DNA of 64,000 nt from the human T2T-CHM13v2.0 reference genome, Homo sapiens. The notes under the pieces were generated by a model that did not search any database, was not told the DNA's origin, and saw only the letters and a list, made by a program, of their open reading frames with translations. A program made the translations under genes and the position numbers. Every line of letters starts with the position of its first letter. Position 1 is the stretch's first letter. Positions 7,523-11,656 of the stretch are shown piece by piece. The stretch lies in NCBI RefSeq assembly GCF_009914755.1, contig NC_060927.1. One strand, written 5' to 3'.

Positions 7523-7750
7523 CAGTCATCTCTCAATGTGAATGAGGGATTGGTTCTAGAACCCTCCACAGATACCAAAATCCATGATACTCAAGTTTCT
7601 TATATTAAATGGCATAGCATTTGCATAGAACCTATGCACATCCTCTCATATACTTTAAATCATCTCTAGATTATTAAAATAGTTGATAGAATGTAAATGC
7701 TATGTAGTTGTTAAACTGTGCTATTTTTCTCGTTGTTTTTTATTATTTTT
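7523..7750 (+). mobile_element. MER2 DNA transposon, 5' part
   Basis: cagtcatc...gggattggttctagaaccc...gataccaaaatccatg...tactttaaatcatctctagatta matches MER2. Confidence 0.85.
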
Positions 7751-10700
7751 TCCATATATATTCCCATATATATTCCCATATATATTCCCATATATATATT
7801 CCCATATACATATTCCCATATATATATTCCCATAAATATATATTCCCATATGTATATATATTCCCAAATGTATATATATTCCCAAATATATATATTCCAA
7901 TATATATATATTCCAATATATATATTCCCATATATATATATTCCAATATATATATTCCCATATATATATTACAATATATATATATTCCCATATATATATT
8001 ACAATATATATATATTCCCATATATATATTACAATATATATATTCCATATATATATTACAATATATATATATTCCCATATATAGATTCCCATATATATTC
8101 CAATATATATATTCCAATATATATATTCCCATATATATATATCCATATATGTATATTCCCATATATATATTCCCATATGTATATTCCCATATATATATTC
8201 TGCCATATGTATATTCCCATATATATTCCCATATATATGTATTCCCATATATATATTCTCATATATATGTATTCCCATATATATATATTCCCATATATAT
8301 ATTCCCATATATATTCCCATATATATATATTTTCCCATATATATTCCCATATATATATTTTTCCCATATGTATATTTCCATATATATATTCCCATATATG
8401 TATATTTCCATATATATAGGTTCCCATATATGTATATTTCCACATATATATAGGTTCCCATATATGTATATTTCCATATATATAGGTTCCCATATATGTA
8501 TATTTCCACATATAGGTTCCCATACATATATTCCCACATATATTCCCATATATATATATTCCATATATATACATTCCCATGTATATATATTCCATATATA
8601 CATATTCCCATATATATATTCCATATATATATATTCCCATATATATTCCATATATATATATTCCCATATATATTCCATATATATATTCCCATATATATAT
8701 ATTCCCATATATACATATTCCCATATATATATATTCCATATATACATATTCCCATATATATATATTCCATATATATATTCCCATATATATATATTCCATA
8801 TATATATTCCCATATATATATATTCCATATATATATTCCCATATATATATATTCCATATATATATTCCCATATATATATTCATATATATATTCCCATATA
8901 TATATTCATATATATATTCCCATATATATATTCATATATATATTCCCATATATATATATTCATATATATATTCCCATATATATATATTCCCACATATACA
9001 TATTCCATAAATATATATTCCCACATATATATATTCCATATATATATATTCCCACATATATATATTCCATATATATATATTCCCACATATATATATTCCA
9101 TATATATATATTCCCACATATATATATTCCATATATATATATTCCCACATATATATATTCCATATATATATATTCCCACATATATATATTCCATATATAT
9201 ATATTCCATATATATATTCCCACATATATATATTCCCATATATATATTCCATATATATATATTCCCATATATATATTCCATATATATATATTCCCATATA
9301 TATATTCCCATATATATATTCCCATATATATATTCCATATATATATTCCCATATATATATTCCATATATATATGTATTCCCATATATATATATTCCATAT
9401 ATATATGTATTCCCATATATATATATTCCATATATATATGTATTCCCATATATATATATTCCATATATATATGTATTCCCATATATATATATTCCATATA
9501 TATATGTATTCCCATATATATATATTCCATATATATATGTATTCCCATATATATATATTCCATATATATGTATTCCCATATATATATATTCCATATATAT
9601 GTATTCCCATATATATATATTCCATATATATGTATTCCCATATATATATATTCCATATATATGTATTCCCATATATATATATTCCATATATATATATTCC
9701 CATATATATATATTCCATATATATATATTCCCATATATATATATTCCATATATATATATTCCCATATATATATATTCCATATATATATATTCCCATATAT
9801 ATATATTCCATATATATATATTCCATATATATATATTCCATATATATATATTCCATATATATATTCCATATATATATATTCCATATATATATTCCATATA
9901 TATATATTCCATATATATATATTCCATATATATATATTCCATATATATATATATTCCCATATATATATTCCCATATATATATATTCCCATATATATAGAT
10001 TCCATATATATATTCCCATATATATAGATTCCATATATATATATTCCCATATATATAGATTCCATATATATAGATTCCCATATATATAGATTCCATATAT
10101 ATAGATTCCCATATATATAGATTCCATATATATAGATTCCCATATATATAGATTCCATATATATAGATTCCCATATATATAGATTCCATATATGTAGATT
10201 CCCATATATATAGATTCCCATATATGTAGATTCCATATATATAGATTCCATATATGTAGATTCCCATATATATAGATTCCATATATGTAGATTCCCATAT
10301 ATATAGATTCCATATATGTAGATTCCCATATATATAGATTCCATATATGTAGATTCCCATATATATAGATTCCATATATGTAGATTCCCATATATATAGA
10401 TTCCATATATGTAGATTCCCATATATATAGATTCCATATATGTAGATTCCCATATATATAGATTCCATATATGTAGATTCCCATATATATAGATTCCATA
10501 TATGTAGATTCCCATATATATAGATTCCATATATGTAGATTCCCATATATATAGATTCCATATATGTAGATTCCCATATATATAGATTCCATATATGTAG
10601 ATTCCCATATATATAGATTCCATATATGTAGATTCCCATATATATAGATTCCATATATGTAGATTCCCATATATATAGATTCCATATATGTAGATTCCCA

Positions 10701-11396
10701 TATATATAGATTCCATATATGTAGATTCCCATATATATAGATTCCATATATGTAGATTCCCATATATATAGATTCCATATATGTAGATTCCCATATATAT
10801 AGATTCCATATATGTAGATTCCCATATATATAGATTCCATATATGTAGATTCCCATATATATAGATTCCATATATGTAGATTCCCATATATATAGATTCC
10901 CATATATATAGATTTCCATGTATATAGATTCCCATATATATAGATTTCCATATATAGATTTCCATATATGATTTCCATATATGATTTCCATTTATAGATT
11001 TCCATATGTAGATTTCCATATGTAGATTTCCATATGTATATTTCCGTGTATAGATTTCCATATGTATATTTCCGTATATAGATTTCCATATATATATTTC
11101 CGTATATAGATTTCATATATATAGATATCCATATATATAGATTTCCATATATAGATTTAATATATATAGATTTCCATATATAGATTTCCACATATAGATT
11201 TCCATATATATAGATTTCCACATATATAGATTTCCATATATAGATTTCCACATATATAGATTTCCATATATAGATTTCCATATAGATTTCCATATATATA
11301 TATTTCCACATATAGATTTCCATATATATAGATTTCCATATATAGATTTCCATATATATATATTCCATATATATATATATTTCCATATATATATAT
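7751..11396. repeat. 3.65-kb AT-rich compound tandem repeat (TTCC(C)A(TA)n variants)
   Basis: Directly visible; contains 20 in-register copies of a 31-bp unit TTCCCATATATATAGATTCCATATATGTAGA at 10261-10880. Confidence 0.98.
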
Positions 11397-11583
11397 TTGA
11401 GATGGAGTCTCGCTCTGTCGCCCAGGCTGGAGTGCAGTGGCACCATCTTGGCTCACTGTAAGCTCTACCTCCCGGGTTCAGGGCATTCTCCTGCCTCAGC
11501 CTCCAGAGTAGCTGTGACTACAGGCGCCTGCCACCCTGCCTGGCTAATTTTTTGTATTTTTAGTAGTGATGGGGTTTCACCGT
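11397..11583 (-). mobile_element. 5'-truncated Alu, AluY-like (right arm, linker, start of left arm)
   Basis: gagatggagtctcgctctgtcgcccaggctgg...aagctctacctcccgggttca..cattctcc...ggggtttcaccgt. Confidence 0.9.
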
Positions 11584-11656
11584 TTCCCCACATATTTTTA
11601 GTCCATACTTGGTTGAATTTGTAGCTGCGGAACCCATGGATATGGCGTGCTGATAG
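11584..11656 (+). mobile_element. MER2 DNA transposon, 3' part
   Basis: ttggttgaattt...gcggaacccatggata matches the MER2 3' terminus, completing the element begun at 7523. Confidence 0.8.

What the first reader, a model, noticed from the sequence alone, without database searches (positions are those of the whole stretch)
7745..11599. 3.65-kb VNTR appears to have grown from an Alu target-site duplication and tail
Seen: MER2 is split into 7523-7750 and 11584-11656. The right junction of the minus-strand AluY is TTCCCCACATATTTTT|AG (11584-11599), which resembles an L1-endonuclease TSD. Where the left TSD copy and poly(T) tail should be, there is instead an array of TTCC(C)A(C/T)ATATA units, some literally TTCCCACATAT (e.g. 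~8531 and ~9018). Inference: the left TSD plus the tail seeded a minisatellite that expanded to 3.65 kb. This dates the array's birth to after an AluY insertion and shows where its unit came from.
Basis: partly seen in the sequence, partly recalled or inferred. Interest (0 to 1): 0.7.

Follow-up and report, generated by a model that had tools for sequence, protein, structure and literature searches.

The report
Minisatellite grown from Alu insertion scar
A 3.65-kb AT-rich tandem repeat on human chromosome 3 sits where the tail and left target-site copy of an old Alu insertion should be and likely grew from them, but arrays with the same unit occur at a dozen other places, mostly without an Alu, so it is a tidy example of a common process.

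Summary
The anatomy is real: MER2 left part (7523-7753), 3.65-kb array of 243 TTCC(C)(AT)n units (7746-11396), three T, a 5'-truncated minus-strand Y-type Alu (11398-11583), then TTTCCCCACATATTTTT|AG and the MER2 right end. That junction motif is native MER2 sequence; its likeness to the unit is not chance (1 of 7034 control 17-mers). Best reading (0.65): the Alu duplicated the site; ATAT in the tail-side copy grew to (AT)n, and head plus (AT)n then duplicated. Four of 12 other Alus with TCC(AT)n tails show this first step (left copy 6-9 AT units, right 1-2); a held-out set gave 0 of 3. The unit class recurs at 12 or more other loci, 10 of 12 not at an Alu tail, some as long. The Alu looks old (4.4% non-CpG), so the dating is a loose upper bound. 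No orthologs or population data were available; 'variable number' is untested. Alu-tail repeats are well known; consumption of the TSD into the unit is a small variant.

The parts
7523..7753 (+). Left part of a MER2-type DNA transposon relic (name recalled), T-rich subtype, ending in T6-CC
   Evidence: 40 genome-wide matches at 76-87%; alignment with intact copies
7746..7757 (+). Likely eroded left target-site copy (T6-CC-ATAT), also the first array unit
   Evidence: Sequence; in 11 T-rich paralogs CC occurs only next to this site; HMM alignment does not show the overlap; inferred
7746..11396 (+). 3.65-kb array, 243 units T2-3 C2-3 (AT)n with variants, 21% G+C, longest pure AT run 7 units; diverse ends, homogeneous middle
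8749..8864 (+). 4 perfect copies of a 29-bp dimer
9018..9203 (+). 6 perfect copies of a 31-bp dimer carrying the CAC variant
9360..9557 (+). 6 perfect copies of a 33-bp dimer
10246..10896 (+). 21 perfect copies of a 31-bp dimer: likely the youngest expansion
11396..11398 (+). TTT, all that is left of the Alu poly(T) tail
11398..11583 (-). 5'-truncated Alu, Y-type motifs (name recalled), 7 of 158 non-CpG differences from the majority of 12 Y-type copies
11583..11599 (+). Right target-site copy TTTCCCCACATATTTTT, followed by AG (L1-endonuclease-type nick site, consensus recalled); native MER2 sequence
   Evidence: paralog L032 has the same C-run-ACATATTTT
11584..11656 (+). Right part of the MER2-type relic, followed by TA

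Best explanation
The array sits between the left half of a MER2 relic and the 3' end of a truncated Alu and likely arose from the left target-site copy and the Alu's poly(T) tail. Steps: (1, inferred) the Alu inserted by target-primed reverse transcription at the MER2's own T-run/C-run/ACATAT/T5|AG site and duplicated about 16-17 bp; (2, inferred here, seen at four other Alus) ATAT at the end of the tail-side copy slipped into the unstable T tail and became an (AT)n run while the far copy stayed short; (3, inferred) the C-containing head plus the run was duplicated by slippage between TTCC..AT direct repeats, giving a 12-18 bp unit; (4, shown as pattern, mechanism inferred) point variants arose and blocks of 29-33 bp dimers were amplified, most recently 10246-10896. 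No function is indicated; it is most likely neutral, probably length-variable DNA. The route is one entry into a general process in which any TCC(C) head beside an (AT)n run becomes a minisatellite.
For: Array fills exactly the gap between MER2 T6-CC and the Alu 3' end; only TTT of tail remains. The junction motif occurs once in intact copies, and in 11 T-rich paralogs CC occurs only beside this site (4 of 11 within 8 nt, a fifth 9-10 nt away, 0 of 11 elsewhere), so T6-CC on the left most simply marks the same site. Unit-like motif in 1 of 7034 control 17-mers, 0 of 46 other Alu ends. Of 15 other Alus with TCC(AT)6+ at the tail, 12 had a recognisable 5' end; 4 of 12 have TCCAT in the far target-site copy versus 0 of 28 other Alu ends (Fisher p=0.005) and 60 of 2718 window 22-mers (binomial p=1e-4); in those four the tail-side copy has 6-9 AT units, the far copy 1-2; L071 keeps a perfect 15-bp duplication. 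The right copy here is unexpanded and has a C4 head found in no unit, as expected if it was cut off from the array by the Alu from the start. Repeats born in Alu tails are established (PMC3812793, PMC3378579; passages).
Against: No ortholog was seen. No intact left copy; a profile of 9 T-rich paralogs ends the left flank at model position 228-229 and starts the right flank at 252, i.e. shows no overlap, and the left tract (37 nt) is shorter than all 11 paralogs (41-68 nt). 8 of 12 analog Alus and 3 of 3 held-out Alus lack the head in the far copy. An unanchored alignment-score test did not separate true from shuffled pairs (null maximum 19, window pair 19 in a wrong register). CAC units fall in 3 internal blocks, no more than other T>C variants allow, and recur in unrelated arrays. 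The same unit class forms at 12 or more other loci, 10 of 12 not at an Alu tail. The MER2 site grows (AT)6+ with no Alu in 4 of 6 fetched copies.
Confidence: 0.65

Rival explanations
1. Array first: the MER2's own CC-ACATAT site grew an (AT)n run and a short array, and the Alu later inserted into its last unit; the tail was then homogenised.
For: The MER2 site carries (AT)6+ without an Alu in 4 of 6 fetched copies; most arrays of this class form at native heads inside other repeats; the sequence match cannot tell this from the best reading.
Against: None of those 6 MER2 copies has a TTCC(AT)n array, 0 of 12 other arrays is in MER2, 0 of 19 measured paralogs has 4 or more AT units at the site. 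It needs the last unit to stay unexpanded with a C4 head and the tail to be lost as well.
Confidence: 0.15
2. Tail only: the poly(T) tail decayed to (AT)n and picked up a CC from the flank or by mutation; the true TSD was short or partly deleted, and the likeness to the right junction is only shared MER2 context.
For: No overlap in the profile alignment; short left tract; 11 of 15 analog Alus lack the head in the far copy; in the DM2 case the repeat arose from the tail between intact TSDs (PMC3378579, passages).
Against: CC lies only beside this site in T-rich paralogs; chance rate of the motif about 1 in 7000.
Confidence: 0.12
3. Imported: the array, or a seed of it, was copied in from another TTCC(AT)n locus (ectopic repair or template switch), or came with the Alu as a patterned tail.
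For: At least 12 other loci carry near-identical units.
Against: A 45-nt dimer word of this array occurs only here (4 of 4 matches); the unit is fully explained by local sequence; the other tail-side runs follow unrelated Alus.
Confidence: 0.08

Closest known systems
Alu-tail-derived repeats: DM2 CNBP/ZNF9 (TG)(TCTG)(CCTG), SCA10 ATTCT (PMC3378579, passages read); general review PMC3812793 (passages)
   Same: Repeat replaces the poly(T) tail of an antisense Alu; the DM2 locus also has an Alu beside a MER2.
   Different: There the repeat lies between recognisable TSDs and has 2-5 nt units; here the left TSD appears consumed into a 12-18 nt unit, the locus is intergenic, no disease link, no primate series seen.
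Direct-repeat-initiated minisatellites (Haber and Louis model; Jurka and Gentles Alu-derived minisatellites), seen only as cited in PMC3389668 (passages)
   Same: Short direct repeats (TTCC..AT) bracket the duplicated unit; birth tied to a transposon.
   Different: Those units are pieces of the Alu body; this unit is target-site head plus an AT run and holds no Alu-body sequence.
Human TTCC(C)(AT)n arrays at 12 other loci
   Same: Same unit class, same CAC and other variants, sizes about 0.6 to over 5 kb (four of 12 at 3.7 kb or more).
   Different: 6 of 12 sit at one site of a shared dispersed repeat (flanks 77-90% alike; an LTR-type family by recall), 2 of 12 at one site of another (87% alike; L1 3' end by recall), 2 of 12 abut an Alu-family 3' end, 2 unplaced, 0 in MER2.
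Long uninterrupted (AT)n at fragile sites, e.g. FRA16D Flex1 (AT)34 (PMC12972899, listing and start of abstract only)
   Same: AT-rich, self-complementary tracts.
   Different: Longest pure run here is 7 units; a 300-nt block folds at -27.9 kcal/mol (z -3.25) but with an unstructured centroid, so no single stable hairpin is predicted.

Membership tests
Alu-tail-derived tandem repeat | Repeat directly abuts the Alu 3' end in place of the poly(A/T) tail | tested here: met
   Array ends 11396, TTT, Alu body from 11398
Alu-tail-derived tandem repeat | Repeat and Alu both lie between two target-site copies | tested here: inconclusive
   Right copy clear; left reduced to T6-CC-ATAT; paralog CC position for, profile alignment against
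Alu-tail-derived tandem repeat | Ortholog series: empty site, Alu with plain tail, Alu with repeat | not testable with these tools
   The genome tool holds no relatives for this assembly
L1-endonuclease (TPRT) insertion | T-run/purine nick site at the end of the target copy, 7-20 bp duplication (consensus recalled) | tested here: inconclusive
   TTTTT|AG at 11599/11600 present; duplication length cannot be read because the left copy is eroded
AluY subfamily | Subfamily-diagnostic positions | tested here: inconclusive
   Three short motifs recalled as Y-type are all present and co-occur in 9 of 69 other Alu stretches; no curated consensus available
MER2 (Tigger-derived MITE) | About 340 bp dispersed element with terminal inverted repeats and TA flanks | tested here: met
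   26 full-length relatives of 291-347 bp; 14/24 inverted match, TA on the right, GT on the left; the name itself is recalled
VNTR (minisatellite) | Tandem units over 6 bp | tested here: met
   Median unit 15 nt, dimers of 29-33 nt
VNTR (minisatellite) | Copy number varies between individuals | not testable with these tools
   One assembly only; no catalogue row found
Direct-repeat-initiated minisatellite (Haber-Louis) | Array flanked by 5-10 bp direct repeats that are part of the unit | tested here: inconclusive
   TTTCC heads at both ends and beyond the Alu, but the far copy is separated by the Alu and the seed state is not visible

The most novel reading that the evidence does not exclude
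Alu target-site duplications that end in CC-ATAT-TTTT are one-sided seeds: the copy next to the tail grows (AT)n and can then capture its own head to become a kilobase AT-rich minisatellite, so birth sites and units of such arrays are predictable from the insertion site. The human reference holds the stages side by side (intact duplication with (AT)6-9 on one side: L071, L075, L083, L084; two units: L080; 243 units: this locus). A side lead, much less likely (about 0.05): the array's length tags the age-at-menarche signal near VGLL3.
Probability: 0.3. Interest if true: 0.55.

Novelty: new variant of a known kind. Interest (0 to 1): 0.3.

Why it matters
Where minisatellite units come from is usually unknown; one survey could assign a mechanism to only 6% of transposon-derived tandem repeats (PMC3389668, passage). 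This locus, with its analogs, gives a concrete route (target-site head plus AT run) that can be checked in existing ape and monkey assemblies in an afternoon. It does not change what is known about Alu tails as repeat nurseries, the array is not unusual in unit or size, and no function is indicated.

Tried and rejected
Literal-copy argument: rejected. Profile-HMM proof of TSD overlap: not obtained, the T-rich tract aligns ambiguously. Unanchored local-alignment score for TSD pairs: no discrimination from 110 mismatched pairs; replaced by an anchored motif test, in which L077 and L086 had no recognisable Alu 5' end and L085's match was spurious and was dropped (13 to 12). Held-out replication with a TCCC head: 0 of 3. 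L069, a 5.5-kb array beside an Alu, looked like a second TSD case but the sequence after its Alu does not resemble the unit. Stable-hairpin reading: weak. Primate orthologs: none held. Literature on this locus: no hit in searches, nor in supplements of PMC8327921 (3 files, file 1 not searched; that set excludes retrotransposon-linked VNTRs), PMC13263140 (2 small files), PMC11326147 (only chr15 rows), PMC12350158 (file cut when stored; 2 of 7 places of one term seen), PMC11701250; PMC12058530's supplement was unreadable; the Sulovari 2019 and Elks 2010 papers were not held. GRCh38 positions used for those look-ups were estimated from recalled VGLL3 coordinates. Unseen supplements and catalogues may well list this array.

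Full report
What is there. Window 7746-11396 is a 3.65-kb tandem array (TRF periods 16 and 31). Split at the C-containing heads it has 243 units, median 15 nt, of the form T2-3 C2-3 (AT)n with variants such as TAGA, ATGT and ACAT; G+C is 21% and the longest pure AT run is 7 units. The ends are diverse (11-14 distinct units of 17-19 per 300 nt) and the middle homogeneous (2 of 19 at 10446-10745); perfect dimer blocks lie at 8749-8864, 9018-9203, 9360-9557 and 10246-10896, the last with 21 copies of 31 bp. The array ends in TTT and the 3' end of a minus-strand Alu of 186 nt that is cut at its 5' side at 11583; then come TTTCCCCACATATTTTT, AG, and 57 more bases of the outer element.

The outer element. 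7523-7750 and 11584-11660 each match many dispersed copies (40 and 23 matches listed, lower bounds). Among 36 other loci fetched, 26 hold a full-length element of 291-347 bp containing both parts; the window's ends are 14/24 inverted-complementary and TA follows 11656. The name MER2 is recalled. The right junction is native sequence of this element: intact copies have one T-run, C-run, two bases, ATAT, T-run site at that position, and L032 has the same C-run-ACATATTTT.

Is the site duplicated? In the 11 T-rich paralogs whose tract could be measured (19 of 26 measured in all), CC occurs only beside this site (4 of 11 within 8 nt, one more 9-10 nt away, none elsewhere), which makes the left T6-CC-ATAT the likely remnant of a second copy. 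Against: the left tract is 37 nt versus 41-68 in paralogs, and a profile of 9 T-rich copies ends the left flank at position 228-229 and starts the right at 252, so shows no overlap. The duplication is therefore likely, not shown. The likeness of unit and junction is not chance: 1 of 7034 control 17-mers and 0 of 46 other Alu ends carry such a motif.

The junction has four C; no unit does. TTCCCACATAT occurs 9 times, all internal, and CAC units form 3 blocks, against about 6 blocks of T>C at four other positions. The same 11-mer occurs 3 times in an unrelated array (L060), and CCACATAT in 6 of 12 unrelated arrays. These are most simply recurrent transitions.

The unit is a genome-wide class. 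Two exact 44-nt patterns found arrays at 12 other loci (the second list stopped at 40 rows, so a lower bound). None is in MER2. Six share flanks 77-90% alike and two others share flanks 87% alike; by recall these are a site in an LTR-type family and the L1 3' end, each with a native TCC(C) beside an AT run. Two abut an Alu-family 3' end (L066 by eye, L069), and in L069 the sequence after the Alu does not resemble the unit; two are unplaced. Four of the 12 are about 3.7 kb or longer. So neither unit nor size is special; what is local is which head was captured.

Analogs of the first step. A pattern for TCC(AT)6 directly before an Alu 3' end gave this locus and 15 others. Twelve had a recognisable Alu 5' end (two had none, one spurious match dropped). 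TCCAT lies just beyond that end in 4 of 12, against 0 of 28 other Alu ends (Fisher p=0.005) and 60 of 2718 window 22-mers (binomial p=1e-4). In those four the tail-side copy has 6-9 AT units and the far copy 1-2; L071 keeps a perfect 15-bp duplication; L080, not one of the four, shows two head-plus-AT units before its tail. A held-out set with a TCCC head gave 0 of 3, and an unanchored alignment test was uninformative. So TSD-seeded, one-sided AT growth is real but explains a minority (4 of 15) of such tails.

The rival from MER2 itself. (AT)6 within 25 nt of the element's right-end motif occurs at 7 places; of 6 fetched, all are MER2 copies, 4 with no Alu in about 500 nt and 2 with an Alu-family insert beside the run; none has a TTCC(AT)n array. 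The site can thus grow an AT run alone, which keeps array-first alive (0.15), but that history needs the last unit to stay short with a C4 head and the tail to vanish as well.

Mechanism. Inferred: TPRT insertion at the T5|AG nick (consensus recalled) duplicates 16-17 bp; ATAT of the tail-side copy slips into the T tail (seen at four other Alus); head plus run duplicates between TTCC..AT direct repeats; variants arise and dimers amplify in blocks (pattern shown). A 300-nt block folds better than shuffles (z -3.25) but its centroid is unstructured: many weak AT pairings, no single stable hairpin predicted. Confidence 0.65.

Age. The Alu differs from the majority of 12 Y-type copies at 7 of 158 non-CpG positions (4.4%; the 12 range 2.1-7.0%, biased low as they define the majority). 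With a recalled rate near 0.15% per million years that is about 30 My, with roughly 12-60 My from counting error alone. 'Born after AluY' is thus a loose bound, and the perfect 651-bp block must be far younger.

Known context. Alu tails as a source of repeats: PMC3812793 (passages), PMC9659126 (passages), and the DM2 primate series, where the repeat lies between intact TSDs (PMC3378579, passages). Direct-repeat initiation and Alu-derived minisatellites: as cited in PMC3389668 (passages). I found no paper describing a TSD consumed into a minisatellite unit, nor this locus (searches; supplement look-ups, several incomplete); subscription papers and unseen catalogues may hold either.

Verdict. 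Observation partly confirmed, interpretation partly supported. A small variant of a known kind, no function indicated, decisive test is a simple ortholog comparison that could not be run here. Interest 0.3.

Noticed in passing
window about 18,000-18,500 (estimated): The age-at-menarche SNP rs7642134 is listed about 70 kb from VGLL3 (hg18 chr3:86,999,572; table rows in PMC3446388 and PMC3646805). If it lies on the gene's 3' side, as I recall, it falls roughly 7 kb right of the array. No linkage was tested.
   Followed up: partly
L060 (G000:C2:126.33 Mb), L069 (G000:C21:31.69 Mb): Some arrays of this class are bracketed by inverted copies of a flank (63 bp at 98% in L060, about 20 bp in L069), and in L059 and L070 the heads run opposite to the host repeat, which suggests fold-back at the AT run as another way to supply the head.
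   Followed up: no
L088 (G000:C13:31.11 Mb), L089 (G000:C3:187.28 Mb): Two more MER2 copies have an Alu-family insert at about the same internal site with an (AT)6-10 run beside it: the site may be a repeated Alu target.
   Followed up: partly
L076 (G000:C5:165.65 Mb), L078 (G000:C10:92.24 Mb), L080 (G000:C12:42.50 Mb): Short AT-based arrays at Alu tails: about 240 bp of ATCC(AT)n units, a mixed AT/GT tract, and a two-unit CCTTCC(AT)n repeat.
   Followed up: partly
window 16782-16828: Pure (AT)23.5 microsatellite, much longer than any uninterrupted run in the array.
   Followed up: no
window 38973-39024 and 55063-55148: Small tandem repeats of 26 bp (2 copies) and 27 bp (3.1 copies), the latter inside LOC105377196.
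   Followed up: no
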